DNA from: Naegleria gruberi
Lineage: Eukaryota
DNA: 64,000 nt
Strand: one strand, 5' to 3'
Assembly (NCBI GenBank): GCA_000004985.1
Contig: GG738875.1
A program made the position numbers and the translations under genes. Every line of letters starts with the position of its first letter. Positions within the stretch are counted from its first letter, which is position 1. This document shows, one piece after another, positions 21,238 to 47,211 of the stretch. The notes beneath the pieces are model-generated. The model did not search any database. It had not been told where the DNA came from and was given only the letters and a program-made list of their open reading frames with translations.

Positions 21238-24200
21238 TTAAATTCTTTCTTCTTCTGTTCTATCCTCAATACCTGAATAGTCAACCGAATCAACAACTTC
21301 CTGCTCTTGGTGACCTTCCTGTTGTTCTTCATAGGTTTCATCCTCTGGATCTTGATTTTCATCGTGTTGTTCTTCAAAATCATTATCAAAATCCTCAAAC
21401 TCTTCCTCTTCCACTTCTTGGACAACTTGTTGTTGAGGTTGATATTCTTCCTGCTGTTGATCATCATAATAATTATTATTATTATCAGTATTATCCTGTG
21501 AAACATGAACCACTGAAAAATCTTCAGTTCTGAGAGTGTCTGATTGAGGAGCCTCAGAGGTGTCAAAATGAGAATTATCAAACTCTTCAAAATCGCCAAA
21601 AGATGTCTCAGTCTCTCCTGTTGTCTTGATTTCACTAACACCCAAAGAGGCACTAAGTGGGAGATATGCATCCGTTGCAGTCATTATCTCTATTGGATTC
21701 TGGTTGGCTTGAGTTTGGAACATTTGAGATGTATCATGTTGCGGTTCATAGTTTTGATTCTCATTTCCTTCATCATATTGTTTAAGGAAATCTTCTGCTG
21801 ATTGAGGTTGATTTGGAGCATATCCATTGGATTCTTCTTCTTCTTGTGTTTCTTCAACCTCAATAACTGGCGTTGGATCATGATCGCCATGGAATTGAGA
21901 AAATTGATAGCCTTGATCTTCTTCCTCTTCTTGTGTTTCCTCAACCTCAATAACTGGCTTGGTATTGATTTCCTTCTCTTTCTTCTCCTTCTTCTTTTCC
22001 TTTTTATCCTTTTTGTCCTTCTTGTCCTTCTTTTTCTTTTTTTCTTCTTCAGATGAAGATGAAGAGGAAGAGTCTGTACTCTCTTCGACCTCTTCAACTT
22101 TTCTTGGTGATGGTTTTTTCACACTAGACTCTATTATTGGAGATCTCTTTTGACTACTCTTAACGTCCTTCAAGGCTTGCATGCCGTTTTCCTTCTTGAT
22201 TTGATTGTAATTATCTCGTAAGAGTGTTATCAACTTGTTTTGATTCTTCCACAATTCCTTTTCTCTGAATGACATTCCTCTTGTATCAACTCTGGTCATT
22301 GAAGAAAAGAGTTTGTTTGGATTGTCAACAAACTCTTCCATAATAGCTTGATAACTTCTCTGTAAATTATTGTACCTGTCATTATTTTCCTTAATAGTTT
22401 TATACAGTTCTGAGGGTATGGTAATCATTTCCTCTGGTTCTTCCTCTTGTTTTTGGCTCTTTCTTGCCAAAAGTTTAAGTGTATCGGCTAGCTGAGGAAT
22501 GAGGCCACTCATTGTGGTTCCTTCTCTTTCATCATCCTCTTGTTGCTGATGTAAATTTTCCAAAACATGTCTAGCCAATTCCTCCTCCAACCGAACTGAC
22601 TTGTCCACTTTTTTTGAAGTTTTCATACTACTCGTTGCACTTGAGGGGGTTACAGTTTTTTTCTTTGATACAGAAGATTTCGTTGATGAGGAAGCAGATT
22701 GTGGTTTTCTTACTGTTGATGTTCCATGTAAGACATGATACCAATCCTTGGTTGGTTGTTCAAGGTAAGAGTTTGTATTTCTTCCAAGTGTTACGTTTTT
22801 CTTTCTCATACTCAATGAGTCAACTGTCTTTGTACTATTGCTTAGAGAACTGGGTCTGGAAGGGTTTGCTGATGAGGGCCTTTTAATTGGTTGCGTATTT
22901 AAAACCTTTCCTGATGAGGTAATTGATTTTTTCTTGACCTTCTTTTTCGTTTGTCTTTCCTCCACGAAACGTTGAGGCTCCCCTTTCAACTGTCTTGAAA
23001 TATCAGCCAGTTGATTTGCCATCGTATTGATTTGATTCTCTATTTGTCCTCTCATCATGATTGTTTGAGCCTGAGTATCCTTGTAGTGTTGTACAAGAGT
23101 AGACAGTGCTCCCATCTCTCCGTTTGCCATTGTACCTAGCATTGGATTGTATGTATTTTGTACAGGTTGATTTTGGAATGTGTTATCAGTTACAGTAAAC
23201 AGAGGATTTCTTGTGACAGCTCCTGTTTGCATTCTCAATGACTTGTCCATGGTACCAGAGTGTGGACCTCCATCAGTCATTGGTCTCTGTAATGAGAAAC
23301 TCTTGGAAAAGTTTTGAGTCAAGTATTCATTAAAATTATCTATTGGACCTGCCTTAACAAGTGACCTCAATCTCACATCCATATCAATCACTCCAACATC
23401 GTATCCTCTATCATTTTTAATTGTAAATGTTCCACTAATGGTACGTTTCTGTGGTATTCTTTCACCTTTTGGAGCATCAATTTCATCCGAAACTTTCAAT
23501 TCATTGAGAGGTATACTAACACTTCCTATAAGAACTGGTTTCCAATTACCACGACCCATATTAGGATCAGCCATACTTCCTCCGTATGTCATGTCAGTAG
23601 GTGAGGCTGTCAAAATGAATAAAAACACATAGAGGGGTAATGTTTGGATATATTGTCCCAATTCCATTCTTTCCATTGAAAATACTACACTTTTTCCTGT
23701 TCTAAATAACATATTATGTGATGAGACTTTTTCCTGATTCTTCATCATACCAGTTCCATAAAAACTTGTTTGCTTAAATCCTTCTTTAAACATTCTATTT
23801 TCTTGGGTGTCATCTCTTCCATAGGGACCCTCAGGTTTTTGAATGTACATTAGAGGAAACTCCCACAATCTGAATCCTATACAACTGTCATTGGAGAGGA
23901 GTGGATTTGTAGTTTTATAGATGAAATGAGAAACTTCGTGAATGTAGACATCAAGAGACCATAAACTGAGAATAGAGTATGTCACTTTAATTTTAAGTGA
24001 ACCTTGAAACTTACTTTGAGTCAACTTCTGATATTTCTTCCTCTTCATAGTAGTCGTTTTGAGAAGATAAAGATGAGGTGGATCGAGGTGAATCCTCCAC
24101 TAATTGTTGTTGAGAACGAGAAGTGTTTTTCATAGATGATGGTTTCCTTGAAGAGGATGATGAGCCAGCATCTTGTCTGTAATTTGATGAAGAAGGTTCA

Positions 24201-29273: not shown

Positions 29274-30689
29274 TCATTCATCCCAATAAATAATTCCCAT
29301 AGCTAAATCATCATCGTATTCATCCCCTCCTTCCACAAAAGCAATGCAATTTCCCTTAATGATATGATGTTTGGCTTGTTCTTCACTACCAACTTGGTAA
29401 ACTATCTTGTTGCAGACATTACACATTCTACTGGAAGAGGTGTGAAGTGGAAGAGAATCGTATTTGAGAGGACATTTGTAGATCCATTCACATTGGTTGA
29501 TGAGATTCCATTCGTAACTCTTAATTGCAAAAGATTCGTTTCTTGCTGATGCAAGGTTGACTGAAGGCATGTGTAGCTTGATATGGTCAATTCTTCTTCT
29601 GAGAACGTGGAGCCAATTCTTGATATTTAAATTATTTTTCCTAAAGTTAGGGAAGTAGAAACAAACTAATGGTTTCCAAATTTCCAATTGAACTCGTGTA
29701 AATAGTTCACTCTCTTCATTTATCATAGCAATTGAATTCTTGAGTGATTTCTCAATTGAATGAGATTGTGAAATAATTCTTCTATTGAAGAATAGACTCA
29801 ATAATGATTGATTACCCATCGCAAATCTATTCAATTCTGATAAATTCAAGAAACTTGCAATTAATATCAAAATTTCAGATGGTAATTCATTTACAGTAAA
29901 TTGTTGAATGGAATTAATTGTTCTCAGTTCTACCAAAACTCGACCGACATTCAATAATCCATTGAAAAGACTATGTGGAATAGATGCTGAATTCGGAATA
30001 TCCAATTCTAATCCAATACTTGCCACATTATCTACTGCTTCCTGAATTATACTATTCAAATTTAGAGATGCTCTCAGGTTTTCATATGTTTGATTCCAAA
30101 CCACGTGTGAATTTTCATAGGAAGCTACCACTTTCAGTCCGTATGCAATCATCGGTTCCATCTTCAACAATTCCAAAAAATCTGCCTTTTCCTTTGTAAT
30201 TTTCTCTCCAGCTCTCAAAAGTAAAAAATCTGTCGATGCATATACATCCTGTTGAGCTATGTCTCCAACCTTTGCCTTTGCTTCAAATTTGAAAGATTGA
30301 ATTTGTTCAATCAATTCTTCAATTTCTGTTGAATTTGTAAAGATTAGTCCAACATTTCCTCTCAAATATTCGCAAATTTGATAAAGAACTTCTGGATTGT
30401 GCTTCCACTCTGATGGTTTCACATTAAATTGAATATCCTGAGCCAAGTTTCGAATAGCACTTCTGATCAATGTATTCTTTCCCACCAATAATTCGGCCTT
30501 CTCTCTCAATTTCATTCGAACTATTTGTAACTGATCCGATTTCATTCGAGGATGTATTTTAATAATAATTACATTCGAATGATCATGAAAATGTTGAATG
30601 ACCTTCTCGAATTTTGCACATTTATGAGAGAGACCCTTCTTTTCGGAATGAAATTGTTGTTTTGAAGCTGATTCGTCCAAGTTTTTCAT
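29274..30689 (-). CDS. Ribosomal stalk protein P0 (uL10)-like domain fused to F-box and C-terminal Cys/His zinc-finger-like domain, paralog A
   Basis: 471-codon ORF, ATG at 30689. The N-terminal ~250 aa matches the P0 core (SDQLQIVRMKLREKAELLVGKNTLIRSAIRNL; LRGNVGLIFTNSTEIEELIEQI; AVDNVASIGLELDIPNSASIPHSLFNGL). It has no acidic P-protein tail. Instead it carries an F-box (LPSEILILIASFLNLSELNRF..SLLSLF) and then CEWIYKCPLK..CNVCNKIVYQV..KHHIIKGNC. Confidence 0.7.
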   Translation of the reverse strand: MKNLDESASKQQFHSEKKGLSHKCAKFEKVIQHFHDHSNVIIIKIHPRMKSDQLQIVRMKLREKAELLVGKNTLIRSAIRNLAQDIQFNVKPSEWKHNPEVLYQICEYLRGNVGLIFTNSTEIEELIEQIQSFKFEAKAKVGDIAQQDVYASTDFLLLRAGEKITKEKADFLELLKMEPMIAYGLKVVASYENSHVVWNQTYENLRASLNLNSIIQEAVDNVASIGLELDIPNSASIPHSLFNGLLNVGRVLVELRTINSIQQFTVNELPSEILILIASFLNLSELNRFAMGNQSLLSLFFNRRIISQSHSIEKSLKNSIAMINEESELFTRVQLEIWKPLVCFYFPNFRKNNLNIKNWLHVLRRRIDHIKLHMPSVNLASARNESFAIKSYEWNLINQCEWIYKCPLKYDSLPLHTSSSRMCNVCNKIVYQVGSEEQAKHHIIKGNCIAFVEGGDEYDDDLAMGIIYWDE

Positions 30690-30807
30690 TCCAACTCAAC
30701 CTCTGAAGGAATATCAATGCATTTCCAGCTGGTTCAGTAACCTTTCTAGTCATCAACTCCATTCGAGAATCGTAAAATATCGTCGATCCACCCTCAAACT
30801 CTCCATC

Positions 30808-31353
30808 CTATTGAGAATTCAGATAAATAATGAGAGTGAGATAACTCTTTGTTTTGTTCTTGTGATCCTCAAAGCTGCCATCGACGTGTTTGTTGAAATA
30901 ATGCCCTGGTTTATACTTGCATAATCTCCAACGAGGATTTATACTTGCTAAGTGCAATGTTCTGCCATCCTTACTCAATGTTTGTGGCAGATGTTGCTTT
31001 ATACGATTCCAGACTATTTCAGTAAATTTTGGATCGTCACTCATTAAACGATCATTAAATCGATCATTATAGGCATAGCAAAACTTATCCGCATCCTCAT
31101 ATCCCATCTTTTCACTCAACTCTATCATTAATTTACATTCGTCTTTTGAAAGCACTTGATCCAATACGAAACATGGTTTCTTTACTTGTTCAACCTCCTC
31201 AACTGTTTTTCTTGAAACTCGTGGACACCAATTATTCGAATCCATCAGAAGCATATTTTTTTGTATTTGTGAAATATTCTCATCATTAGAATCATTCAGT
31301 ATTGGTGCATAGACCATCTCGTTCCATCCTGTAGGAGCAGAAAGTAAAGTCAT
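30808..31353 (-). CDS. 2OG-Fe(II) oxygenase, prolyl-4-hydroxylase-like, with in-frame TAG and degenerate C-terminus (possible pseudogene)
   Basis: ATG at 31353. HxD motif (NKHVDGSFED) and the YLN region are present. TAG at 30808..30810 falls exactly where P4H has YLNdvEeGGeT. The same frame continues DGEFEGGSTIFYDS...ALIF to ~30622 but lacks the distal His and Arg, and it overlaps the start of the downstream gene. Confidence 0.5.
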   Translation of the reverse strand: MTLLSAPTGWNEMVYAPILNDSNDENISQIQKNMLLMDSNNWCPRVSRKTVEEVEQVKKPCFVLDQVLSKDECKLMIELSEKMGYEDADKFCYAYNDRFNDRLMSDDPKFTEIVWNRIKQHLPQTLSKDGRTLHLASINPRWRLCKYKPGHYFNKHVDGSFEDHKNKTKSYLTLIIYLNSQ

Positions 31354-31516
31354 TTTTTTTTAATTTTGTGTGCTTTTTTTATTTTGCACTTTTAATTATT
31401 TTACAAAGTTATTAATAGAATTTTTACTTTTTTTAGAATGATTTCAAAGTTCATCATCAAATAACCAGTTATTAGTTTACAATATTTACAATATTTACAA
31501 TGAGGTGCTGATTAAG

Positions 31517-31855
31517 TTACATTAGTTTTTCAGCCACTTTATCCCTTAGTTCTTCAAGTTGCTCTGCACCTAATACTCGCTTTTGTGTCTTGTTTGAAAC
31601 AAGAACAGTTGGTTTAGTCCCGATGGCACCTCCTTCTACATTTCCAATTCTAAATGTAGTCATCACAATTCCTGCAACGTTTGGTTGACCATTGACAGTT
31701 CTGTCATCATTCAACATTTCTTCGTTATCTTCTTCTTCTTGAGAACTTGATTCGTCCACAGTTTTGAAAACAGTTGCTTGGTCACCAATAGCACATTCTC
31801 TTGCTTTCTTTATATCAAAAACTGAAACCTCATCCTTGCATTCTTGTCCTGTCAA
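31517..31855 (-). CDS. Hypothetical acidic protein sharing AIGxxPTVLV motif with the divergent neighbour
   Basis: 112-codon ORF. ...GAIGTKPTVLVSNKTQKR. Possible upstream exon near 31897..32000. Confidence 0.35.
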   Translation of the reverse strand: MTGQECKDEVSVFDIKKARECAIGDQATVFKTVDESSSQEEEDNEEMLNDDRTVNGQPNVAGIVMTTFRIGNVEGGAIGTKPTVLVSNKTQKRVLGAEQLEELRDKVAEKLM

Positions 31856-32432
31856 TTGAGGAATGTTTACAATTTCGTCATCTTCGCTGCTATCCTTTAC
31901 AACATAGCAAGAATTTGTTCCAACTGCAGCTTGCTTACACTGGTTGATTTCAAATACTGAAGAAACAGAGGAGGAGTAGCACTCTTACAGTTTGAATTTC
32001 TCTTCATTTTGAGTTGTGGTGGTTTTTTATTTTGTTTGGTTATTGGAATGTGGACCTCGAAATAATTTGATTCAGATTTAAACAATTGAATGCTGGTGTT
32101 TATTTCGAGGTCAATACAATGAGATATTTATAATTTATCACGGTTATTATAATTTACCAATTAATTACCTTCTGCTTTTAGAAAGTAACTTGTTTTTAAT
32201 GTCAACTGATCCCAAGTTTACAATAAATATTCTCCTCATTATTTCCGGATTCTTTAACAATTTGAAAAATCGCTTGTTTAATGACTGTACAATATAGAGA
32301 AGAGAGAGAGCTATTATACAAACGTGCATTATATAAATAATACAATAGTTGAAGATTTTTCATTATTAACCACCAAAAAAAACATGTGCATTTCCTTCTT
32401 GATGAAATATTCCAACAACAACAGTAGCAGAA

Positions 32433-33368
32433 ATGACTTGTTCATCAGCAGAAACCAACGAAAATATCACAGATAATGAAACCAATGAAAAACACATTCA
32501 TTATCATTCAAATTATTACATTAGGAAAGTTAGTCACTCAGCCATAGGTTCGAATCCAACTGTCTTGGTTGACAAGAAGAACCATCAACAAGAGAATAAA
32601 GATAACGAACACATATTTATCGACTCGAGAATAAACGAAAAGGTTACAGAAATTAATGTGCAAACTATGAACCAAATAAGAAATTGTCCATCAAGTCACA
32701 AAGATACAATCACAGAATTATCAACAAGATATCAAACCCTCATCGAGACTTTGAATGTAAAAGGAACAGATTTGCAAACACTTGACGCAAAAAGGCAGTT
32801 AATAGTATTGAAATCGTATTTGGCCGTAGGCAAAACATTGAATGAAAGTCAACTGTCCTCCTGCTTGAAAGCTATCAAAAATTGTCAAGCAAATGTGAGA
32901 CCTCCCTTGCTTCTGAAGTATTACATGGTCTATTGCTGTGTAAAGAAGGTGTCAGGTATGGAGCAAGATTGCTTAATGATATCTGACATGTTAAAGGAAA
33001 TTCCTAAAAGTGCAGCAGATGAAAAAGAACTCGAGTTTTACTTTGCATTAATGGAATGGGAGTCTGACATGCATTCGATTTCCTCAGAGAGAATGTGTGA
33101 TATTTATCGTGTTTTTGACAGAACTCTTGATGAATTTATGAAGGAAGGTAGGATTGACTCAGTTCAAAGAATATCTTTCAAGTTGATCGATGTGGCTAAG
33201 AGGATCGAAAGTACCATTAAAAGAAACACTTTAAACAAAGTGAACTGTCTGAGAAGGAAACAAGTTGTGCAGGAAAATTACTATAATGCAGCTCCTGCAA
33301 ACATGCATGTTGATATTCGAGAGAGTTTGAGAGAGGTATTACAATATAATTACTTTCAAGAGGAATAA
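32433..33368 (+). CDS. Hypothetical protein (311 aa)
   Basis: ATG at 32433, TAA at 33366-33368. Contains SAIGSNPTVLVDKKN, similar to the motif in the divergently transcribed gene. Confidence 0.45.
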   Translation: MTCSSAETNENITDNETNEKHIHYHSNYYIRKVSHSAIGSNPTVLVDKKNHQQENKDNEHIFIDSRINEKVTEINVQTMNQIRNCPSSHKDTITELSTRYQTLIETLNVKGTDLQTLDAKRQLIVLKSYLAVGKTLNESQLSSCLKAIKNCQANVRPPLLLKYYMVYCCVKKVSGMEQDCLMISDMLKEIPKSAADEKELEFYFALMEWESDMHSISSERMCDIYRVFDRTLDEFMKEGRIDSVQRISFKLIDVAKRIESTIKRNTLNKVNCLRRKQVVQENYYNAAPANMHVDIRESLREVLQYNYFQEE

Positions 33369-33688
33369 ATCTGTATATACAGAGAGCCAAAGTTTCATTT
33401 CAAAACAGACAGTAAATCATACAAGGAATGAATTTGTTCACATAGGCAATAAATCACATCCAAAACAAGGTACTTTCTTATAATTTGAATTCATCTTTAA
33501 AAACTGTAACGTTCAAGTAGCCGACATGGCCTTAATTTCGCCTCCATTTCACTCCAAAATTATGCCTTAATAACTCAACGGTGGAATTTTCCTCTCACAC
33601 CAGAAAAAAATACCCATCGAACAGACCATATATCATCAACCACACCAATAATACCACAACCTGGGTGCGTTTTAAACACATTGTTATT

Positions 33689-36600
33689 TTATTGTTGCTC
33701 CAAATAGTTATCAGTGGATGGTTTCTTAATACGTAGAGTGTCTAACGAAGTGGAAGAATCATCAGGGACGAGACCGACAATAGAAGCTCCCACAGACATG
33801 AGTAATCGATTTTCAAAATCATTGAATTTTTGTTTTAACAGATAGGTCATCATTAAACCCTTTCCTTTCACTTCGACTTCTCTTGGTTCGTAATCATAGA
33901 GGTCGTGCACTCTTTCATAGGTTGAACGTGAAATTTGTATTCTTCCTGGTAAACTTGTTGATTCCATTCTTGAAGCAGTCTGTGAAATATGATTAATGAA
34001 AACTAACAACATTACACAACTTACATTTACAGCATCTCCCCACAAATCAAAAGCAAACTTTTTGGTTCCAATAACACCTGCAACAACACTGCCTGTGTGA
34101 ATACCCACACGGATATTGAGTTGATTGGAATATAAATTTCCAGTACTTTCATTGTAATCTTTCAATACCTTAAACATGTCAATGGCAAAATTAAGAGTTC
34201 TTTCAGGGTGGTCACTTTCTTTAGCGTCCAAATATAATCCTCCAGCAACAAAGTATGCATCTCCAATGGTCTTGATTTTTTCCAATTTGTAAATATCACA
34301 CAATGCGTCAAATCCATTTACAATGTAATTTAACATTTGAACAAGCTCAGTTGGAGAGCAATATGAAGATCGTGAGGTGAACCCAACCATATCACTGAAT
34401 AGACATGTAACATCATCAAATTTTTCTGAAATTGTTGTCTCTCCAGCTTTCAATCTATTAGCAACAGCCACTATTAAGGTTGTTCGAATTGACTATAAAA
34501 TTCAAACGACTTACCTGGCAAGATATTTAACAATAAATTCTCAGATTTCTTCTTTTCAATATTCAACAGCTCAACCGATTTCTTCTCTGATGTAATATCT
34601 CTAAAGATGGCTGTGAAAATCTTCTTTTGTTTCTTCTCCATCATTACCTCATTCTGCTGGACTTCAATTTGGGCAACTGAAATACTCATCACTATTGGGA
34701 AGGATTTACTTGCATCGAGAGTATTTGTCGAGATGGCATGTCCTCTCTTGGCATTCAACTCGACAACTTCTCCAGATGATTCAGATTGTTGAAGGTAGCT
34801 CAACTTTTCTTCCAACTTTTCCCTTTCATTTGTTGAAAAGAGAGAAGTTACAGGCGTACCGATTACTTCACTCGATGATTTGATACCCATCATTCTCAGT
34901 GCAGAAGTATTGATCATTTCAACAGTTCCTTGTGCATCAAATTGAATAACTCCTTCAATGGCAGTTGACAAGATTGCAGTCAAATTGTCAACTCTTTCTC
35001 TAGAATCAACTAAAAACTTCTTTTGTTTGGATCTTCTAAACATGTTTAAAGTGGAATACAACTGGTCATTCAGGATATATCGACTCACTTTCTGATTATT
35101 ATCCAAAACTTCCCAAGAGACATGATTAAACATTTGTCTCAATTGATAAATTTCTTGTTCATATCTAATAATTGAAGAGTATCCAATATAAGCGCATATT
35201 AAAAAAATGACAAAGAATATGACTGAAATTGAAATGGTTAACGAAAGATTCGACAGCTTGGAAAATGTTGTAATGAAAATTTCCAATGAAGTCTTGACTT
35301 TGTAATTGAATGAAGCGGCCATTTCCCAAGAAACCGAATGAAACTGTGGTAATAAAACCTGAGGAATGTATGTCTTTCTATAAGCCAATTGATTATATAA
35401 GTCAATATACACAATAAACAATTGTAATAATTGAGTAACCGACAAACATTCGAAATATTGTCGATTATTGGTAATTGTGTTATTTTCCAAAAACGATGAA
35501 AGGTCGGTAATGTTTCCACTATTTTGAAATCGAGAACAATTAGCTGGTAATATCAACTTGTCTATGTCATCACTCACCCCCAGAAGTGAAAAGTATCCTT
35601 TTGAACTATCCCCGTACAAGTAAGATTTCATATAGGTTTCAACTTCTCTCGAATGGGTCGTAATGTCCTTGTGAATTCTATCAATTTCACAGGAAAGTCC
35701 TCCCCACAATGGTTTCCAATCATTCATGAGAAGTAATTCTCCCAACTTGAACATGATTCTATTGAAAATTACCTTAATCTTTGAAGCTTGATACAATTTG
35801 TTTAGAGCCATATCTTGATTCTTCAGATTATTGTTTGTATCTACCAAGTATAAAATGATGGCCAATAAAGCAGTTAAGAAAATGATAATCACAAGCGAGA
35901 TGAGTGTTCTGGTTGGAGTGAAATAAGTGCCAATAGCAAGCGAGGTTCTATCAGAGTCAATGTTATGGGAAACTTTGGAGGTGGATGCCTTTTCAAGTGT
36001 GTGATAAATCTTTCCTGATTCTTCCTTTGCTAATCCAAAGAATAAGTGAGCTATACGTTGTTGTTTTTTGAAATAGTCAATTAGGACAACTAGAGTAATC
36101 AAACCAAGTATAAAGAAAACTCCAATCGATGCACCCATGACATACAAGAATAAATTCAGAATATTGCTCACCTTGTTGGATTTAGCTGTCAAGACATCAG
36201 AACAGACATTTTCTAAAGCATAGGCATTGTACTTTCTATTTTGCCAGAAAAAGAGAAACGACGGATTGTCCAATGTTTGTTTCACTTGAGTTTCTGTAAA
36301 ATCCTTTACTCTGTCAACATGAACATCCATCAATTCGACAATTTCCTTGATAGTTACATTTCTCTTTTCATAATTCATTGTTGAATTTTCATTAAAAGTT
36401 GTGGAGATTACTGGCATGAAAATTTCAGTTTCCTGACCTTCCCACAAATCCAAATAACCAGTCTTGTCAGTTTCTGACATTTGTTCCAAGAATGATTTGA
36501 GGTAACCCTTGTAAGTTTTCAATTTTTCTTGTTGAGTTTTTTTATAAGTTCTGGAAAAAGTCGAATTGTCCTTATCGAAATAGTAATGCCTTTGTAAAAG

Positions 36601-39144
36601 ACGAATTTCACATAGAATCAAGAAAGGATAAGGAGAGGTAGCACATAAATTCTGATAAGCAGAAAGTTCTGGATTGCTTCCAGAGCTGAGACTTCCTGTA
36701 AAAGAGTTTGAAATCATGACAGCAGCAATTAATCCACCAATCACAACCAACAAGCTCACCCATGGAAAGAACGAGGTAAAAATAATTGTAGTAGTCAAGT
36801 GACTCCTTCTTTGAATACTCTTAGTATAAGTATCTTGTTGTTTCTTGCTGAATTGCTCTTCATCATGTTGATTTTCAAATTCACAAATGTCATCAAATTT
36901 GATCTTTTTCTCTTCCTCCAATTGACTCATGCTTTCAGATACAATGATAGCTGGCACTACCCTAGAACGTCTCTTCTTTAAAGATCTCTCAGAGAAAGTT
37001 TCCAATATAGTTGGTTGTTTTGATTTGAGTTTTTGACTTTCTTCCTCTTCAATCACTGCTACAAGTTGAAGTATTTCCTTGCTCTTTTCCTTATCAAAGA
37101 TGAATTCTTCAACGAACATGGCATAGGGACGAAGTGCTGATTTGTTGTAGGAATGGAGAGCAACCAAACTTTCAAATTTGGATTTACAATGAGAGGTCAA
37201 TTTGGTAATTTTTCTATTAATGATGATGAGCTCATTCAAACTATTTTCATTATTAGTAATAACTACTTTCCAGAAGCTTTTGTGAAATTCTCTCAATTTG
37301 GATTGTTTCTTTGACAAATGTTGTAAAGTTTTTGAAATTGACTTTTCAGAATCAGCTGAAATATTCAAACTTGCCATAAGTTGAGTTTCAATTTCAGATC
37401 TTCTCACAGAGCCAACATATTTTTCAAATATTGATGGCTTGCACATGTACATTCTCTTGAGTAAATACAGTGCAATATTCAAATTTGTCTTGGCATGATG
37501 TTGTGTTTGATCCAATTTATGATATCTGACATAATTGACAATTGCTAAACAAATAGATGCAGAGCTGTATTCACTTTTGTGACGAATTGATCCTCTAATG
37601 ATGGCACTTATAATTCTACATTTGGTCGAAGGTGGATTATCGTTGTTCTCATCAACAATAGTTCTCTGTCGTGAATTGTATTCTGATGAACAGAATCGAA
37701 TGGCCATTTCCAAGTTTGCTTCACCAATTTCTTCTAATAAATCAGGTGTGAGAGCAATTTCACTTGTATTACCAGAATCTAATAGAGGTGAGCATATTTT
37801 CTTCACTACTTTTGTGGCTCTTCTTGTATAAATGTCCATAATTGTAACACCAACTGTTAAGAATATTAAGAAACCACCAATGGCAGCTCCCCAATAAATT
37901 ACACCATTCGTGGACAGGACATCTACTGTGTTAGTGTCAATATTTACAATTGAACATGTCAAGCTCACAATATTCTGTCCAACTATTCCAAACATGATGC
38001 CGGCCATGTAAGAATTCTCAGATCTAACATTGAATGGAACAATAATGAAAATCAAAACAGCCAATATAAGGAATAGAAAGAGTGAAAATGATGGAAACAG
38101 GTATGGAAATGATGAATAATTTGGAATCATTTGAGAGTACCAATAGAACAGCATCATGACCAAATTGACCACCGAAATGAACACTGGACTTTTCGATGAG
38201 AAGAATGAAGCTCTCCTCTTCAGCAAACCATGCCCACTCCCTGATGTTGAGTACAGTAATGAATCTGTCTCTATAACTCCGAATAGGAACAATAAGACAA
38301 TCAACACTTGTGGCCAAATGTGAATAACAGAGAGGGCAGCAAACACAGCATTCATTGGTCCCCAACATTCAACTTGTGAATAATCCCTCAAGTAGAATGT
38401 ACCTCCATCACTTCCAGAGGAATTTATCTTCTCCGTATAATCACAACTCCAAAAAGAACTGAACAAGTGAGTGATTGGCAAGTTAAGGATGAAAAGGGCA
38501 ATTACCAGGAATCGGCTTAATTGTTTAGACCTACGCTTAAATTTCACAAATCCAACCAGATATCCCTTGTATTCAATATAGGTGTGAAGTATCAGAAACC
38601 AGTGGATAACAAACACTATCACCGACAAGACAACCACAGCCACATGAGGAATAAAGTGGAATCCAAACGTGATGAGTGTTTTGAAAAAGTAGAGATTAAT
38701 GTCGTGTGCAATTTGACCCCACTGCACAAATGGAATGAATCCTAGTGCAATTAACTGCAACGGAAGTAAAATTCCATGTGTGAAGAGTGGTAACAAGTGT
38801 GGAATGATTGATTTACCCAATTGATGATGTAAAGTACTAGAATTTGAAAATTTAAAAGTTTGAATGAGGGAGGTGATTCTCTCCTCGACTCTTGGCTTGG
38901 AAGATATCAGCAAATCTGAAGAAAAGGACATTGAAGTATCGGCAAGTGATATAGTATCATCCTGTTGATAACTAGCAGTTCCAGTATTATTATTAATCAT
39001 ATTAGCATTTGATGAAGAACTATTGAAGGGAGTAAAATCATTATTTGAATCCACAAGTAATTGATTTGAAGATGAGGAGGAAACTAGTGCAGCAGTAGCA
39101 GCAGTTGCATTAGTGGTTGAGAATGAACTACTTGAACGATGCAT
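33689..39144 (-). CDS. Multi-pass membrane PAS-domain class III nucleotidyl cyclase (predicted adenylate cyclase), ~1788 aa
   Basis: Exons 39144..34515, 34470..34025, 33979..33689. Intron 1 34514..34471 (44 nt, GTAAGT...AATAG) restores LLNILP-V-AVANRLKAGE. Intron 2 34024..33980 (45 nt, GTAAGT...CACAG) restores GDAVN-TASRMES. About 12 predicted TM helices in the N-terminal 1300 aa, then a PAS-like segment (LSTAIEGVIQFDAQGTVEMINTSALRMMGI). CHD catalytic motifs: FSDMVGFT, KTIGDAYF (Lys), FDLWGDAVNTASRMES (Asp, Asn, Arg). Confidence 0.8.
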
Positions 39145-39800
39145 CGCTTTAAACTCCAATTAAGAATAGAGAGAGAAGACAACAGTAGTGTGTGACTGGG
39201 TTGTTTCTTCTCAATTTATTAAGGTTGTGTAATGTTTTTTAAAAGTGAACAAGTTTGTGTGTTTATTACGTTGATGATTCGCGTTCTGAAACTTCTTTAA
39301 GACCATTAGCACCAAAAAAGGAACAAAATGGTAAACAATAAGGAATACAAGCTTGTCGGTAAAACCCATGAAAGCGCCGACAACAACGAACGCGTTTTGA
39401 AGCATGCTTTGAAGAACAAAGAGGCGCAGAATGGAGAGGGAAAAGCTATTAAGGGAATCTGAGATGTTGAAAAATCTAGCTTTCAAAATTTCTGCTGATT
39501 ACTACGAACGGGAATACTATGGATTCAATTTCATTGTAAATTCTCAAATTTTTCCAATAAAGTTTAATCTCCATGATCAGACTCTATTTGGACCTGTACG
39601 AACTTCAGTTTATTTCAGTTTATTTCATATTATATTGGATATTGTTTCATGTTTCCTCTTAGATTCATTCTTCAACAGTTGTGGTAAATACAATCCAATC
39701 GATCTCCACTTGGAAGCACACAAGTTCATCTCTATTTGGAAGAGAGCAGGATTACAACCTGTCCGTCACTTGTCTGACACAGAAACCAAATCTCAAAAAA

Positions 39801-40085
39801 ATGTCTTTTGGTTGGAAGTTCTACCACTTTTGTTGTGCCGTCATGTCTTTCATCATATGCTTCATCCTTCCGTTCTTTATTGTGGTTTGGGAACAGTTTG
39901 TTTGTGCATTCTATAACAACAAGGCAAATGCAAAAAATACAACCACATGTTCAATATGGTCATCTGTTTCAACAAAGTGGACAATTGCAATATTTATTCT
40001 AACTCTATGTGGTTATTTACCTGGAGTGATTGCAGCTTTTATTTATGCGTTTGTGGCTGGAAGAGTATCATGGATTCCACAATAA
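39801..40085 (+). CDS. Pmp3/UPF0057-like small proteolipid (~94 aa, 2 TM)
   Basis: ATG at 39801, TAA at 40083-40085. C-terminal ILTLCGYLPGVIAAFIYAFVAG resembles the Pmp3/RCI2 signature LTILGYIPGIIHAIYVI. Confidence 0.4.
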   Translation: MSFGWKFYHFCCAVMSFIICFILPFFIVVWEQFVCAFYNNKANAKNTTTCSIWSSVSTKWTIAIFILTLCGYLPGVIAAFIYAFVAGRVSWIPQ

Positions 40086-40112
40086 AAAGTTCATATGTAA
40101 AATTGTTTGGGG

Positions 40113-40119
40113 ACAAAAA
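40113..40119 (-). terminator. Pol III T-run terminator downstream of tRNA-Ala
   Basis: TTTTT immediately 3' of the tRNA on the minus strand (plus-strand AAAAA at 40115..40119). Confidence 0.6.
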
Positions 40120-40155
40120 TGGAGTCATAGGGAATCGAACCCTAGACCTTCTGCA

Positions 40156-40186
<31 letters not shown>

Positions 40187-40192
40187 AACCCC
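40120..40192 (-). tRNA. tRNA-Ala (anticodon UGC)
   Basis: Reverse complement GGGGTTATAGCTCAGTTGGTAGAGCGTCTGCTTTGCATGCAGAAGGTCTAGGGTTCGATTCCCTATGACTCCA. G3:U70 Ala identity pair, anticodon loop TTTGCAT, T-arm GGTTCGATTCC. Confidence 0.85.
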
Positions 40193-41249
40193 CTCATGTT
40201 CGAGTTACAAAAGCAATAAGTAAACCCATGGAGTGTTGTTGGATTCGGAAAACTTTGCTCATTGCCCCTGAATTGGTATGAATGCAATAGCTTATTTGTT
40301 TAGGGAAATAGTAGTTGTATGGACTTAGTATAAAGAAATATTTTGTAAATTACGCGAAAAAGAACCTCAAAATTGAGGTTTGACCAGAGCCATTTGAAGT
40401 TGGGTGGGTTATATTAATAAACGAACCAGAAATTCATTAAAAACCTATTACGAAGATGGTGCTCAATTAATAATTAATCATTGAGCCACATTCATATGTT
40501 TTTTCTCAATTTTCAAAATTAGAAAAAATTTGATTCGGATTACTTGTGAAACGAGTTATCAATAATTTGTGTGGATTGAATCATCAGTAACATTACTATA
40601 ATTTGTAATATTATTATTATTTATTAAATATAATTGAATCAAAATAATGAGGAAATTTTCGCAAGCCTCCTCCTCTCTTTTAAAGTGGAGTTGCAAGAGC
40701 TCTAAATCCCGATTCATTCCATCATCATTCTCTCATTTAAAAACATCCAATAATAATATTAATATTATTAATAATCATGAAAGTAAGAGAAATCTCTCCA
40801 ACAATACCAACAACTCGCCTCCATCACTCTGTAAGTTTTCATCAATTAATTTTAGAAATTTGGAGAATTAAACACTTTTCCACTCAATTCCAAAAACCTA
40901 CCCACACCTCTTCAATCCAAATAATATCAAATGATGAATTTAAATTCTTCAAGACCAACCTTGCACCATCAACAATACCTCAAACAACACCCAAAATTCT
41001 ATTATTATTATTGAAAGCCTCCTTCAACAACAATTTCAGCCAACTAATTTAAAGCGCGAGACCTCTTTCGGTACTGATGCACCAACAACACTTCGAAAAA
41101 ATATTTCCAAACAACTCTTGAAGGAATACTCTCTCGCCGCTGCTAATCATCGTTCAGTGCAAGAATTATCCACTATTACTTCTAGAGGTCAAATACGTAG
41201 TTACAGTTCATCTTCATCATCATCAAAATATACAATTTGGATACCTCCA

Positions 41250-44200
41250 ATGTCTAATACAAATTATATTAATCCAGCCACAAATCAAGTGTGGACATCA
41301 AAGGAAATTCGTAAGCAATTTGTCGAATTCTTTGAAAAGAAGTATGAACATACATTCGTTCCAAGTAGTTCTGTCGTTCCACATGAAGATCCAACCTTGT
41401 TGTTCACCAATGCTGGGTAAGTTTTAAAGCTAGCACACCTATATTTATATTTCTTTACCATCTATTTACTATTGGATTACACATATTCACAATCTTGAAT
41501 TCCGGAATTGAACAAATTATTGAACAATAATATTATACAATAACTCTTCACAGTATGAATCAATTCAAGGCTATTTTCCTTGGTCAAGCTAGTCCAGACT
41601 CTAGTTTGGCTAAATTGAAGCGTGCTGCTAACTCTCAAAAGTGTATCCGTGCTGGTGGTAAACATAACGATCTCGATGATGTCGGTAAGGACACTTATCA
41701 CCACACCTTCTTTGAAATGTTAGGTAACTGGTCATTTGGTGACTATTTCAAGAGAGAAGCTATTACATGGGCTTGGGAATTGCTCACTGAGGTTTATGGA
41801 TTGGAAAAGGATAGACTCTATGTCACATATTTTGGTGGTAATGAAAAGCTCAACTTGCCAGCTGACGAAGAAGCTAAACAAATTTGGGGACAATTTGTTC
41901 CAGATGATCATATTTTGCCAGGTTCTATGAAGGATAACTTCTGGGAAATGGGTGATACTGGTCCATGTGGTCCTTGCAGTGAAATTCACTACGATCGTAT
42001 TGGTGGACGTAATGCTGCTCATCTCGTAAATATGGATGATCCAAACGTTTTGGAAATTTGGAACAATGTTTTTATGGAATTCAACAGAAAGGAAGATCAA
42101 ACATTGGAATATTTGCCAGCCAAGCACGTCGATACTGGTATGGGTCTCGAAAGATTAGTTTCCATCTTGCAAAACAAGATGAGTAACTATGATACCGATG
42201 TTTTCATGCCAATCTTTGAAGCTATTCAAAAGGAAACTGGTTCTCGTCCATACACTGGTAAATTGGGTGCTGAAGATGTTGACCACATTGATACTGCTTA
42301 TCGTGTCATTGCTGATCACATTCGTACCCTCGTTATTGCTCTCTCCGATGGTGGTTATCCAGACAATACTGGTAGAGGATATGTTCTTCGTCGTATTGTT
42401 CGTCGTGCTGTCAGATTTGGTGAATTTATGAATGCCAAGAAGGGTTTCCTTACTCGTTTGGCTTCTTGTGTCGTTGAACTTATGGGTGATTTCTTCCCAG
42501 AATTGAAGAAGAATTCTGAAAAGGTTGAAGAACTCATTCAAAGTGAAGAAGTTTTGTTCGCCAAGACTCTCCGTGTTGGTTTGAAATTCTTTAACAGAAT
42601 TGCTGAAAAGATGAAGAGCAATGGTGAAAGTGTTGTTTCTGGTCCTGATGCTTTCAAGTTATATGCTACCTATGGTTTCCCAGTTGACTTGACTTTAATT
42701 ATGGCTCAAGAACAAGGTATGACTGTCGATATGGTTGAATACAAGAAGGAAATGGAAAAGCACGCTACTGCTTCTCAAGGTACTAAGCAAGAAGCTACTG
42801 ACATGAAGCTTGGTGTTATTGAAACTGACAAGTTACAAAATGAACTTAAGATTGAACCAACTCAAGATGATATCAAATATGTTTGGGAAAATATTCAAGC
42901 TAAGGTTGTTGCTATCTTTAGTGAATCTAGCGGATTTGTTGAAGAATTGAACACTGAATGTGAAGAAGTCAATATTGGTATTATTTTGGATCAAACCAAC
43001 TTTTATGCTGAAGGAGGTGGTCAAGCTCCAGATAATGGTGTTTTGAGAATTGGTGAAACTGAATTGAAGGTTGTCAATGTTCAAAAGTTTGCTGGTTATA
43101 TTTTACATATTGTTAACGTTTCTGAATCCAAGCTTGCTGGTAACGTTACTGTTGGTACTACTGTTTCTTCAGAAGTTAACTATGAAAGAAGAGAACCAAT
43201 CGCTGCTAACCACACCTCTACTCACATGCTCAACTTTGCTTTGAGAAAGGTTTTGGGTACTGACTGTGACCAACAAGGTTCCATTGTTAAGGAAGAAGAA
43301 TTGTGCTTTGACTTCTCTGCTGCTAAGGCTCCATCTGTTGAACAAGTTGCTGAAGTTGAAAAGATTGTTAATGATCTCATTGTTGCTGATCATCCAGTCT
43401 TCTCTAAGGTTCAAGAACGTGATGCTGCTTATGAAATTAATGGTCTCAGAGCCATGTTCAGTGCTAACTATGGCGAACAAGTTCGTGTTGTTTCCATCGG
43501 TCAAGACAGTGATAGCATCATGACTGATAGATCAAATGAAAAGTGGCGTTTGATTTCAGTTGAATTCTGTGGTGGTACTCACTTGAAGCAAACCAGTCAA
43601 GCTCAAACCTTTGTCATTCTCTCTGAAAAGAGTATTTCAACTGGTAAGAGACGTATTGTTGCTTTGACTAGAAAGGCTGCTAAGGAAGCTGTTGAAAGAG
43701 CTCAAAAGTTCTCTGTCAAGATTGACGAATTAGAAAAACTCTCAGACGAATTGTTCTGTCCTCGTTACTATGAACTCACTTCTGAACTTACTTTGCTCAC
43801 TGATATTCCATTGCTTTCCAAGAAGGCTTTCGAAAAGAGATTGGAAGCATGCCAAACTAAGGTTCGTAAGATCCAACAATCTCAAAAGAAGGATGATGCT
43901 GAAAAGGCCAATCAACTCATTTCTCAACTCAAGGAGTCTATTGAACAAAAGTCATTGAAGTCCCTTGTCTACCAATTGGAAGATGGTTCTGATCAAAAGT
44001 TCGTCAAGAAGGTTATTGATGCTTTGACCACCATTCCAGTTTGTCTCATTTCTAAGGCTGATGATAAGACTATCATTGTCCTTGCCAGCGTTCCACAAGA
44101 ACAAACTGCTACTTTGTCTGCTAATACTTGGGTTACTGAAGTTTGTAAGGTTGTTTCTGGTAAGGGTGGTGGTAAGCCAATCTTTGCTCAAGGACGTGGT

Positions 44201-44260
44201 TCTGATGTCTCAAAGGTTGCTGAAGCTGTCAAGTTGGCTGAAGAAATGGCTAAATTCTAA
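41250..44260 (+). CDS. alaS: Alanyl-tRNA synthetase (class II), 2 exons, ~957 aa
   Basis: Exon 1 41250..41416 (ATG at [28 protein letters not shown]). Intron 41417..41553 (GTAAGT...CACAG, 137 nt). Exon 2 41554..44260 (TAA). Junction gives the canonical ...[15 protein letters not shown]. Frame stays open upstream to ~41076 with an R/S-rich presequence-like stretch but no in-frame ATG. Confidence 0.9.
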
Positions 44261-44312
44261 ATTGTATTAATTTTGTAAAAATTTGATAAATTATTTTATT
44301 CTAGAAACTTAA

Positions 44313-45322
44313 TCATTTTTTAAGACTATCCAAGTAGGCATAGTAATCTGAAAATTCCCAGTAAAAGTAATCTCCACCATCTAGGAATGACGTATCAGAG
44401 TTTATGCTCAACTTCCAACTATCCTCTTCTAAATCAACCTTACTCAATCCACAAATTCCAGCCTTTACATTATGTCTATCTGCTTCTGGAAGAATTACTT
44501 CAATTTCTTTAATGACACTTGCTGCATGTGAAACTAGTAACACAAGAGTATTTTCATCACTCTCATCTTTTACAAAATTCCAAACATTATCCATAGCAAC
44601 CTTTGCTCGTTGTTCCAAATCCTCAACTGTTTCAATTGGTTTTTCATCTAGAAAATATTTAAAAGGATTACCATCTTTTGAAATGTAGGTGGTTTCGAAT
44701 TGTTTTCCTGTTATATATTCTCCTTGTTGAGAAATATTATTAGCTCTCGAAAATAATTCTTTAAATTGAGTTGAACTGGTTATTTCTTCCAAAGGTTGAG
44801 GTATATTCTCAATAGTAAATGACTTTTTCTCTCCAAACCATTCAGAAATTCCATATTCAACATATAGTTCATATTCTGCCTCCTTTTGAAAATCTCCATG
44901 ATTAGTATGTATTTCATTAACTCCTTTCAAAATGTATTGTGTAGTTTCCAAACATCTTCTATAAGGTGATGTAAATACTATTAATCTCTTCACTCCTCCA
45001 TTCAATTGATTATCCTTTCCAATATTAGCATTATCACAACAAGTCGATAATGATTCATTGTTTTTAATCAAAAAATTACAAGCCAAATGCTTTCCGAGTC
45101 TGAAAGCCAAATCAAATCCTCTACTTGATAATGATGGATTATGTAATGTATTTCCCTCAATTGTTATCCATTGATTAAATTCATCAGATCCTCTAATAAA
45201 ATCTATTTAAATTCATGATCAACACCATAACAACAACCATTCAATACATATTACAATAATTCCGATGATCATTAATACTATTATTATAAAATACAATCAA
45301 TACAAACCAATTCTTTCGCCAT
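44313..45322 (-). CDS. Histidine phosphatase superfamily (PGAM branch)-like protein lacking the RHG nucleophile His
   Basis: Main exon 45202..44313 carries SPYRRCLETTQYI and LVSHAASV motifs. Its N-terminal motif reads FIRGSDEFNQW where family members have RHGE. An in-frame TAA lies immediately upstream, so a short 5' exon is proposed (ATG at 45322, donor GTATTG/GTATTT, acceptor AAATAG at 45203). Confidence 0.45.
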
Positions 45323-45527
45323 GTCTTGTAATGAAGAGTTGTTTCATTTTTTTCAATCAATATTATGGCTACACTGCATTGAAATGAAATACATTATGAA
45401 ATTGAACTGTTTTAATGCATTGGATAATGATGAGAATAAATTATGAACAACAATAGTAGAAAAGGGATCATTGTGAAACAAATAGTAGCAATATATAGTA
45501 GAAAAAACAAAATGGTTCAACATTTCT

Positions 45528-46727: not shown

Positions 46728-46878
46728 TGCAATTGATATTAGCTTGCAGAATTTCTATTACCTATGTATCCATTAACAACTAAAATCTTGACATAATCTT
46801 GTAAGTGTGGTATTTGAAGAAAAAGAATAAATATTATTTTTTAGAATTTTATATTTTAATGTAAAAATGGAGGGCAAT

Positions 46879-47211
46879 TTACTTCTTTTCAGCTTGCTTG
46901 GTTTGTTCAGCAATTCTTTCTTGTTGTCTCTTTCTGATTCTTCTCTTGAGATCTTCAATAGCTCTGATCTTTTTCTTGGCACGAGTAAGATCACCGAGTC
47001 TTCTCTTGGCGAATCTCAAAGCTCTCTTTTCAGAAACTTCAACGAGATCGACGAGTCTAGCTTCGTATGGGGCAACACCGATGGCTTCTTCGACGATATC
47101 CTTGACAACTCTGTGCTTGGATGGCTTTTGGGTCTTGGTGACCTTAGCTCTCTTGGTGGTTGGGAAACCCTTTCTACCAATTCTACCAACGGAAATTCCT
47201 GTAGCGACCAT
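46879..47211 (-). CDS. rpl36: 60S ribosomal protein eL36
   Basis: 110-codon ORF, ATG at 47211, TAA at 46879-46881. MVATGISVGRIGRKGF...VKDIVEEAIGVAPYEARLVDLVEVSEKRALRFAKRRLG matches eL36. Confidence 0.9.
   Translation of the reverse strand: MVATGISVGRIGRKGFPTTKRAKVTKTQKPSKHRVVKDIVEEAIGVAPYEARLVDLVEVSEKRALRFAKRRLGDLTRAKKKIRAIEDLKRRIRKRQQERIAEQTKQAEKK

What the first reader, a model, noticed from the sequence alone, without database searches (positions are those of the whole stretch)
30622..31353. Prolyl-4-hydroxylase-like 2OG oxygenase with an in-frame TAG at a conserved position, abutting the F-box genes
The N-terminal 181 aa are well conserved, including the HxD iron ligands. TAG at 30808 falls within the conserved YLN..EGGET region. 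The same frame continues but lacks the distal His and Arg(Lys), and it runs into the start of paralog A. This is either a decaying gene or a sequence error. The position is notable because in dictyostelids Skp1 prolyl hydroxylation by a P4H (PhyA) regulates F-box protein binding, and this locus sits beside two F-box genes.
Basis: partly seen in the sequence, partly recalled or inferred. Interest (0 to 1): 0.5.

Follow-up and report, generated by a model that had tools for sequence, protein, structure and literature searches.

The report
Hydroxylase gene broken by an inversion
This is a dead copy of a prolyl-hydroxylase-like gene in Naegleria gruberi: an 18.6-kb inversion moved its last 33 codons to the other strand, a TTG-to-TAG change adds a premature stop, and its position next to the "F-box" genes results from that inversion, not from a functional link.

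Summary
An in-frame TAG (30808-30810, minus strand) sits in the YLNSQ-x-DG..GG loop of a 2OG/P4H-like ORF. The continuing frame lacks the distal His and the basic 2OG-binding residue, and it runs into paralog A.

The window is Naegleria gruberi: paralog A is 100% identical to an annotated N. gruberi protein. A 97.6%-identical metagenome contig (L001) carries the intact 250-aa gene. It has TTG (Leu) where the window has TAG.

L001 matches window 31452..30702 (minus strand) and then jumps to 49291..50139 (plus strand). The missing C-terminus (NDKHMLHGGEKVFKGVKYIMRSDIMYSKREEL) therefore lies at 49291-49394 on the opposite strand. Joining the two pieces restores a 251-codon frame.

The gene is split by an inversion of 30702..49290. 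A more distant relative (L007) keeps the un-inverted gene order, TLC gene then MAP10-like gene on one strand. Both junctions lie in continuous sequence with no long inverted repeats. A perfect 9+9 palindrome marks the right junction.

The protein resembles small collagen-type P4Hs (Bacillus anthracis, PBCV-1), not PhyA/PHD. N. gruberi keeps an intact paralog (P0002).

Verdict: an ordinary, recent pseudogene. The link to Skp1 and F-box genes is not supported.

The parts
30702..31353 (-). 5' fragment of the P4H-like 2OG oxygenase gene: codons 1-217 plus the first base of codon 218. It includes the HxD motif (H156, D158).
   Evidence: 97.6% identical to L001 1-751. Pfam PF13640 match. Aligned with five Naegleria homologues.
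30808..30810 (-). Premature TAG at codon 182. The closest relative has TTG (Leu) here.
   Evidence: The column is Leu in 4 of 5 homologues.
30622..30701 (-). Non-homologous read-through tail of the P4H frame. It is really the 12-nt leader and 5' coding region of paralog A, read in another frame.
   Evidence: Homology to L001 ends at 30702. The tail has no distal His or Lys.
49291..49394 (+). Detached 3' fragment of the same gene: codons 218-251 plus the TAA stop. It encodes (N)DKHMLHGGEKVFKGVKYIMRSDIMYSKREELKY, with the distal His and the 2OG-binding Lys.
   Evidence: L001 from position 752 matches window 49291 onwards. Joining 31353..30702 to 49291.. gives an in-frame 251-codon ORF that is 242/250 identical to P0001.
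30702..49290 (.). Inverted segment, 18,589 bp. It carries the P4H 5' fragment, an adenylate/guanylate cyclase, alanyl-tRNA synthetase, a histidine phosphatase, a WD40 gene, RPL36e and the TLC gene.
   Evidence: There is no N-run nearer than 11074-11123.
49283..49300 (.). Perfect 9+9 palindrome TGTTTATCA|TGATAAACA at the right junction. The right arm is P4H sequence.
   Evidence: (only 3 such palindromes in 64 kb).
29274..30689 (-). Paralog A: a P0-like (Ribosomal_L10) domain with a weak F-box-like motif. Its native upstream region is now replaced by the P4H 5' fragment.
   Evidence: It is 100% identical to the N. gruberi 'ribosomal large P0-like protein' P0006.
47856..48968 (+). TLC-domain gene. 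It is the last gene inside the inverted segment and the inferred former upstream neighbour of paralog A.
   Evidence: Pfam TRAM_LAG1_CLN8. L006 is colinear at 98.9% up to 49163. Gene order in L007.
21241..24099 (-). MAP10_N-domain gene outside the inversion, used as a synteny anchor. In L007 its homologue lies 4.8 kb downstream of the TLC gene on the same strand.
49468..50091 (-). Gene convergent with the P4H 3' end. It has the same position in the intact relative L001.

Best explanation
The locus is a recently inactivated, lineage-specific paralog of a small prolyl-4-hydroxylase-like 2OG/Fe(II) oxygenase in Naegleria gruberi.

Two lesions disable it:
1. An 18.6-kb chromosomal inversion (window 30702..49290) has one breakpoint inside codon 218. 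The promoter and codons 1-217 are now on the minus strand next to paralog A. The last 33 codons, which carry the third iron ligand (His224) and the 2OG-binding Lys234, are on the plus strand at 49291-49394.
2. A TTG-to-TAG nonsense change at codon 182.

Neither fragment can make an active enzyme. The position next to the P0-like/'F-box' genes is a by-product of the inversion. Before it, paralog A most likely lay downstream of the TLC gene.

What is shown: both gene fragments, their exact in-frame fit, and the ancestral junction in a close relative. What is inferred: that the rearrangement is a simple two-break inversion (the reciprocal junction is supported by gene order only), that it is real in the organism, and that the gene is not expressed as a functional product.
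For: - Organism: paralog A is 100% identical to an annotated N. gruberi protein.
- Ancestral junction: the intact relative L001 matches window 31452..30702 (minus strand, 97.6%) and then 49291..50139 (plus strand) with no base lost at the join.
- Frame: the joined window fragments give a 251-codon frame that is 242/250 identical to P0001. His224 and Lys234 are invariant in the family.
- Nonsense codon: TTG in L001 against TAG in the window.
- Gene order: L007 has RPL36e(-), TLC(+), SMC(+), MAP10_N homologue(+). This is the order and orientation obtained when the window segment is un-inverted.
- Assembly: the only N-run is at 11074-11123, so both junctions lie in continuous sequence. There are no long inverted repeats at the junctions that could mislead an assembler.
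- Age: the 3' fragment is still an open frame, with 2 synonymous and 0 non-synonymous differences. pN/pS of the 5' part is 0.17, so inactivation is recent.
- Annotation: no annotated N. gruberi protein covers the fragment.
- Redundancy: an intact N. gruberi paralog, P0002, exists. It groups with the N. fowleri and N. lovaniensis genes at 62-63% identity, while this copy is about 50% identical to all of them.
Against: - Only one assembly of this strain was available and no reads, so neither the junctions nor the TAG could be verified independently.
- The reciprocal ancestral junction (TLC intergenic region to paralog A) was not recovered at nucleotide level. L006 stops 127 nt short, and two metagenome scans were empty.
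- Naegleria is at least diploid and heterozygous (PMC9928731), so an intact allele may exist in the same strain.
- pN/pS of 0.17 shows no long neutral decay, so the gene was under constraint until recently. Alternatively, the lesions may be confined to this lab strain.
Confidence: 0.8

Rival explanations
1. Assembly or sequencing artefact. The gene is intact in the organism. The inversion would be a mis-join in the draft assembly, and the TAG a base-calling error.
For: There is a single draft assembly and no reads available here. The close relative has an intact gene. The 3' fragment is still a perfect ORF and pN/pS is low.
Against: - Both junctions lie in gap-free sequence far from the only N-run.
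- The two junctions share nothing longer than a 9-nt palindrome, so there is no repeat that could cause a mis-join.
- The left junction carries 12 nt (GGTTGAGTTGGA) that are absent from L001.
- Two independent artefacts would have to hit the same 750-bp gene.
Confidence: 0.1
2. The lesions are real but heterozygous or specific to the strain. The assembly captured a broken haplotype, while an intact allele or wild strains keep a working gene.
For: Naegleria genomes show heterozygosity and variable ploidy (PMC9928731). An environmental relative about 2% diverged is intact. Inactivation is recent.
Against: Nothing in the window speaks for a second allele. This is a refinement of the main explanation, not a contradiction of it.
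Confidence: 0.25
3. The gene is functional through recoding. TAG is read as an amino acid (stop-codon read-through or a variant code), and the ORF ending at 30622 is the true product.
For: The TAG falls at a tolerant loop position where relatives have Leu or Ser. TAG is a rare terminator in the window, ending 2 of 40 long ORFs.
Against: - Even if read through, the product lacks the distal His and the Lys and stops matching the family at codon 217.
- The true C-terminus is on the other strand 18.6 kb away.
- Long conserved ORFs such as the 1561-aa cyclase and the 901-aa AlaRS contain no in-frame TAG.
- The relative has an ordinary TTG.
Confidence: 0.01
4. One reading: a PhyA-type Skp1 prolyl hydroxylase functionally coupled to the neighbouring F-box genes.
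For: It has a P4H-type fold and lies next to genes with an F-box-like motif.
Against: - The adjacency was created by the inversion that truncates the gene.
- In the close relative the gene lies next to a different gene.
- N. fowleri and N. lovaniensis homologues have no P0-like or F-box neighbours within 10 kb.
- There is no PhyA or PHD2 hit at E<=10 with a family profile, and DdPhyA ranks 43rd by fold.
- The basic residue is Lys, 10 residues after the distal His, as in collagen-type P4Hs. PHD-type enzymes have Arg at +9 (own knowledge of those families).
- The F-box call itself is below the Pfam threshold.
Confidence: 0.02

Closest known systems
Small monomeric collagen-type prolyl 4-hydroxylases (Bacillus anthracis P4H 5hv0/3itq, PBCV-1 vCPH 5c5t, Chlamydomonas Cr-P4H-1 2jig/3gze)
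   Same: These are the best sequence-profile and fold matches for the intact family: 2e-5 by profile and Foldseek 1e-9. They share HxD...H...K with the Lys 10 residues after the distal His. The Pfam family is 2OG-FeII_Oxy_3.
   Different: Identity is only 20-24%. The Naegleria family has its own roughly 60-residue variable N-terminus, and its substrate is unknown. The window copy is split and carries a nonsense codon, so it is not an enzyme at all.
Dictyostelium/Toxoplasma PhyA (Skp1 prolyl 4-hydroxylase) and animal PHD2
   Same: They share the same double-stranded beta-helix superfamily and a generic P4H fold (6t8m at Foldseek E 1.3e-5).
   Different: No sequence-level match at E<=10, and a lower fold rank than about 40 other P4H, PiuC and P3H chains. 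The basic residue is Lys rather than Arg. There is no evidence for a Skp1 link.
Genes disrupted by chromosomal inversion breakpoints (for example Drosophila inversion breakpoints, human F8 intron-22 inversion)
   Same: A two-break inversion splits a gene into a promoter-proximal part and a detached 3' part on opposite strands.
   Different: No long inverted repeats mediate it. The junction instead shows a 9+9 palindrome and a 12-nt filler, which suggests end-joining or hairpin processing rather than homologous recombination.

Membership tests
2OG-Fe(II) oxygenase, P4H-like (Pfam PF13640 2OG-FeII_Oxy_3) | Profile match above the curated cut-off | tested here: met
   32.5 bits against a cut-off of 27 for the read-through translation, covering profile positions 3-73 of 98 only. 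The intact relative scores 41.1 bits over positions 3-93.
2OG-Fe(II) oxygenase, P4H-like (Pfam PF13640 2OG-FeII_Oxy_3) | HxD iron ligands | tested here: met
   H156-V-D158, invariant in all six sequences.
2OG-Fe(II) oxygenase, P4H-like (Pfam PF13640 2OG-FeII_Oxy_3) | Distal His and 2OG-binding Lys/Arg in the same reading frame | tested here: not met
   Absent from the frame that continues to 30622. His224 and Lys234 are encoded at 49291-49394 on the other strand.
2OG-Fe(II) oxygenase, P4H-like (Pfam PF13640 2OG-FeII_Oxy_3) | Double-stranded beta-helix fold | tested here: met
   Tested on the intact relative P0001 only. The AlphaFold model has pLDDT 67 and pTM 0.71. Foldseek best hits are P4Hs at E 1e-9. 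The window copy cannot complete the fold.
PhyA / PHD-type cytoplasmic prolyl hydroxylase (Skp1 or HIF hydroxylase) | Closer to PhyA/PHD2 than to other P4H subfamilies | tested here: not met
   A profile search of the PDB finds B. anthracis and PBCV-1 P4Hs, with no PhyA or PHD2 at E<=10. 6t8m ranks 43rd and PHD2 45th by Foldseek.
PhyA / PHD-type cytoplasmic prolyl hydroxylase (Skp1 or HIF hydroxylase) | Arg as the 2OG C5-carboxylate ligand, 9 residues after the distal His (own knowledge of PHD2: H374/R383) | tested here: not met
   The family has an invariant Lys234, 10 residues after His224. That is the collagen-P4H pattern (H483/K493 in human C-P4H, own knowledge).
PhyA / PHD-type cytoplasmic prolyl hydroxylase (Skp1 or HIF hydroxylase) | Hydroxylates Skp1 Pro; co-occurs with the Gnt1 glycosyltransferase | not testable with these tools
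   No biochemical data. The literature search found no paper linking Naegleria, Skp1 and Gnt1.
Simple two-break chromosomal inversion | Ancestral junction 1 (inside P4H) is contiguous in a relative and split onto opposite strands here | tested here: met
   L001 1-751 matches window 31452..30702 (minus strand) and 752-1558 matches 49291..50139 (plus strand).
Simple two-break chromosomal inversion | Reciprocal ancestral junction (TLC downstream region joined to paralog A upstream) | tested here: inconclusive
   Gene order and orientation in L007 fit. No relative gives the junction at nucleotide level.
Simple two-break chromosomal inversion | Junctions lie in continuous sequence, not at scaffold gaps or repeats | tested here: met
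   The only N-run is at 11074-11123. There are no long inverted repeats at the junctions.
F-box proteins (neighbouring paralogs A and B) | F-box domain match above the curated cut-off | tested here: inconclusive
   Paralog A scores 18.7 bits for F-box-like against a cut-off of 24.3, E 0.0015, over 23 residues. Paralog B has no hit, and its motif is interrupted by a frameshift.

The most novel reading that the evidence does not exclude
The inversion may have done more than kill a gene, in two ways.

- It placed the P4H promoter and a 181-codon upstream ORF directly in front of paralog A, 12 nt before its ATG. Paralog A (the P0-like/F-box-like gene) might now be transcribed from a captured promoter. 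The TAG would then end the upstream ORF 116 nt before that ATG instead of overlapping it.
- The perfect 9+9 palindrome and the near-duplicate GAATGAAAAAC at the two junctions may be the footprint of a hairpin-opening or template-switching repair pathway not yet described in Heterolobosea.
Probability: 0.1. Interest if true: 0.4.

Novelty: new member of a known kind. Interest (0 to 1): 0.2.

Why it matters
The value is mainly practical.

- **Annotation:** it explains an unannotated, apparently truncated oxygenase ORF in the N. gruberi reference. It also locates the "missing" catalytic C-terminus 18.6 kb away.
- **Neighbourhood inference:** it removes a tempting but false gene-neighbourhood argument (P4H next to F-box genes implying Skp1 regulation).
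- **Structural variation:** it documents a precisely resolved inversion between N. gruberi NEG-M and a wild relative about 2% diverged. The junction footprints could inform how double-strand breaks are repaired in this lineage.

It does not reveal a new system.

Tried and rejected
- **Intron hiding the TAG or supplying a different C-terminus.** Rejected. The window is colinear with the uninterrupted ORF of L001 across the TAG, with no extra sequence. The real C-terminus is on the other strand.
- **Variant genetic code or read-through.** Rejected. Long conserved ORFs have no in-frame TAG, and the relative has TTG.
- **Inversion mediated by long inverted repeats, for example a third P0/F-box paralog at the far breakpoint.** None found.
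- **Scaffold-gap orientation error.** The only N-run is 19.6 kb away.
- **Synteny with N. fowleri and N. lovaniensis around their P4H genes.** No shared neighbours within 10 kb, so it is uninformative.
- **Using the upstream region of tandem paralog B as a proxy for paralog A's ancestral upstream.** A/B homology starts only at about codon 22 of A.
- **Recovering the reciprocal junction.** L006 ends 127 nt short. An exact-DNA scan and a protein-based scan of JGI metagenomes found nothing. The contig with the distant A-like protein P0008 was uninformative.
- **Exact-protein look-ups for independent assemblies of the 181-aa ORF, the TLC protein and paralog A.** Nothing on record.
- **A templated source for the 12-nt filler at the left junction.** Not found.
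- **Literature link between Naegleria and Skp1/PhyA/Gnt1.** None in the searchable library.
Full report
**1. Observation**

The minus strand of 31353..30811 encodes a 181-aa ORF that ends in TAG at 30808-30810. If the TAG is read through, the frame continues to TAA at 30622-30624.

Pfam's 2OG-FeII_Oxy_3 domain matches residues 144-217, across the TAG. The score is E 1.7e-7 and 32.5 bits against a cut-off of 27. The match ends at profile position 73 of 98.

In an alignment with five homologues, the HxD motif (H156, D158) is invariant. The TAG column lies in YLNSQ-x-(D/E)G..GG and is Leu in four homologues and Ser in one. Similarity to the family stops abruptly after ...AGNALIFLQ at codon 217. 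The tail RLSWNEKLGRISFK... has neither the distal His nor the basic residue. It overlaps the ATG of paralog A (30689) in a different frame.

**2. Organism**

The ORF of paralog A (29274-30689, minus strand) is 100% identical over 471 aa to the annotated "ribosomal large P0-like protein" of Naegleria gruberi, on a 396-kb contig. The window is therefore N. gruberi. The one N. gruberi genome used in the pangenome paper I read is strain NEG-M, ATCC 30224.

No annotated N. gruberi protein corresponds to the oxygenase fragment.

The N. gruberi hit P0002 is 48-50% identical to this gene and lies on another scaffold, so it is an intact paralog. It groups with the N. fowleri and N. lovaniensis genes at 62-63% identity. 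The window gene and its close relative are about 50% identical to all of them.

**3. Where the C-terminus went**

The best hit, P0001, is a 250-aa protein that is 97% identical. It is encoded on a 1558-bp ENA metagenome contig, L001.

BLASTN of L001 against the window gives two blocks:
- L001 1-751 matches window 31452..30702 on the minus strand at 97.6%.
- L001 752-1558 matches window 49291..50139 on the plus strand.

The base-by-base alignments show that the join in L001 (...CCTTCAGA|ATGATAAACACATG...) is split in the window with no base lost.

Window 49291-49394 (plus strand) encodes (N)DKHMLHGGEKVFKGVKYIMRSDIMYSKREELKY*. This carries His224 and Lys234, both invariant in the family. Concatenating 31353..30702 with 49291.. 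restores a 251-codon frame that is 242/250 identical to P0001. The only interruption is the TAG.

The intact protein reaches Pfam profile position 93 of 98. The same alignment shows TTG in L001 where the window has TAG, a single T-to-A change.

**4. Nature of the rearrangement**

The simplest reading is an inversion of 30702..49290 (18,589 bp) with one breakpoint inside codon 218.

The reciprocal junction could not be recovered at nucleotide level. L006 comes from the same metagenome and is colinear with window 47121-49163 at 98.9%, but it ends 127 nt before the breakpoint. Two JGI metagenome scans found nothing.

Gene order in a more distant relative does support the inversion. L007 has RPL36e(-), TLC(+), an SMC gene(+), and then, 4.8 kb downstream of TLC on the same strand, a homologue of window ORF 21241-24099 (MAP10_N domain, 59% identity over 331 aa).

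In the window, TLC (47856-48968, plus strand) and the MAP10_N gene (minus strand) point away from each other, 24 kb apart. Un-inverting the segment restores the L007 order and orientation. Paralogs A and B and a PhoPQ-related gene then sit in place of SMC.

**5. Real or artefact?**

Several points argue against an assembly artefact:
- The only run of N in the window is at 11074-11123, so the segment is not a mis-oriented contig between scaffold gaps.
- No long inverted repeats flank the junctions.
- The two junctions share only a 9-nt palindrome, too short to mislead a read-overlap assembly.
- The left junction carries 12 nt (GGTTGAGTTGGA) that are absent from L001.
- A second, independent lesion (the TAG) hits the same 750-bp gene.

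I could not examine reads. Look-ups for independent assemblies found nothing. An artefact, or a heterozygous state with an intact second allele, therefore stays possible. Naegleria genomes are heterozygous and vary in ploidy (PMC9928731).

**6. Age**

Against L001, the 5' fragment has pS 0.08 and pN 0.013, a ratio of 0.17. The detached 3' fragment has two synonymous and no non-synonymous differences and is still an open frame. The TLC gene has pS 0.022. Inactivation is therefore recent relative to the roughly 1-2% divergence from the environmental relative.

**7. Junction footprints (unexplained)**

The right junction is a perfect zero-spacer palindrome, TGTTTATCA|TGATAAACA (49283-49300). Its right arm is P4H sequence. 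Only three palindromes of this size exist in the 64-kb window, and the 9-mer occurs seven times on both strands.

At the left junction, 12 nt beyond the break, lies GAATGAAAAAC. It matches GAATGATAAAC, the sequence that spans the break in L001, at 10 of 11 positions, and it contains the ATG of paralog A.

Possible causes are hairpin opening (P-nucleotide-like addition), fold-back or template switching, or pre-existing sequence. The ancestral intergenic sequence is needed to tell them apart. No templated source for the 12-nt filler was found.

**8. What kind of hydroxylase, and the Skp1/F-box idea**

A profile of the five intact homologues finds Bacillus anthracis P4H (2e-5) and PBCV-1 collagen P4H (3.6e-4) in the PDB. 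It finds no PhyA or PHD2 even at E<=10.

An AlphaFold model of P0001 (pLDDT 67, pTM 0.71) matches B. anthracis P4H best (Foldseek 1e-9). PBCV-1 vCPH, PiuC and Chlamydomonas P4H follow. Dictyostelium PhyA (6t8m) is 43rd.

The invariant Lys 10 residues after the distal His is the collagen-P4H pattern, not the Arg at +9 of PHD-type enzymes. That comparison rests on my own knowledge of those families.

The neighbours are P0-like (Ribosomal_L10) proteins. Their F-box-like match is below threshold in A and absent in B. The homologous genes in N. fowleri and N. lovaniensis have no such neighbours. In the close relative the gene is followed by a different, convergent gene. Most importantly, the adjacency to paralog A exists only because of the inversion that truncates the gene. 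The proposed functional link is therefore not supported.

**9. Verdict**

This is a recent pseudogene of a lineage-specific P4H-like paralog, broken by an inversion and a nonsense mutation, with an intact paralog elsewhere in the genome. It is a clean, well-resolved example of a known kind of event, so interest is low. The only points of curiosity are two. One is the junction footprint. The other is the possibility that paralog A now sits behind the captured P4H promoter.

Noticed in passing
window 27459-28955 (-), around 28052 and 28017: Paralog B has a 1-nt deletion inside the F-box-like motif and a compensating 1-nt insertion about 45 nt later, with a TGA in the shifted stretch. It is either a second decaying gene in this cluster or sequencing errors. 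NCBI annotates only the first 299 aa (P0007).
   Followed up: partly
window 29274-30689 (-) and 28050-28955 (-): Paralogs A and B have an unusual architecture. The ribosomal P0/uL10 N-terminal domain (plus the RL10P insert in B) is fused to a weak F-box-like motif and a Cys-containing C-terminal region with no Pfam match. Apart from the two N. gruberi copies and one distant metagenome protein (P0008), the database hits were ordinary ribosomal P0 proteins.
   Followed up: partly
window 49283-49300 and 30681-30701: A perfect 9+9 palindrome lies at the right inversion junction. A 10/11 copy of the breakpoint-spanning P4H sequence lies 12 nt beyond the left junction. These may be a repair footprint.
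   Followed up: partly
window 6471-7532 (-): Two ORFs of 171 and 181 codons are contiguous in one frame and separated by a single TAA. The downstream one ends in the rare TAG. Neither has a Pfam match.
   Followed up: no
window 33689-39159 (-): A large membrane adenylate/guanylate cyclase is split into a 1561-aa ORF and a 260-aa ORF with the catalytic domain in another frame. This is probably an intron, but a frameshift is not excluded.
   Followed up: no
window 24681-26738 (-): One ORF combines a PhoPQ-activated pathogenicity-related domain (E 4e-94) with an ice-binding-like domain. Both domain names point to bacterial proteins, so the pairing looks unusual for a eukaryotic gene.
   Followed up: no
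window 30702-31353 and 49291-49394 versus 47856-48968: Synonymous divergence from the same environmental relative is about four times higher in the P4H fragments (0.08-0.12) than in the TLC gene (0.022), although both lie in or next to the inverted segment.
   Followed up: no
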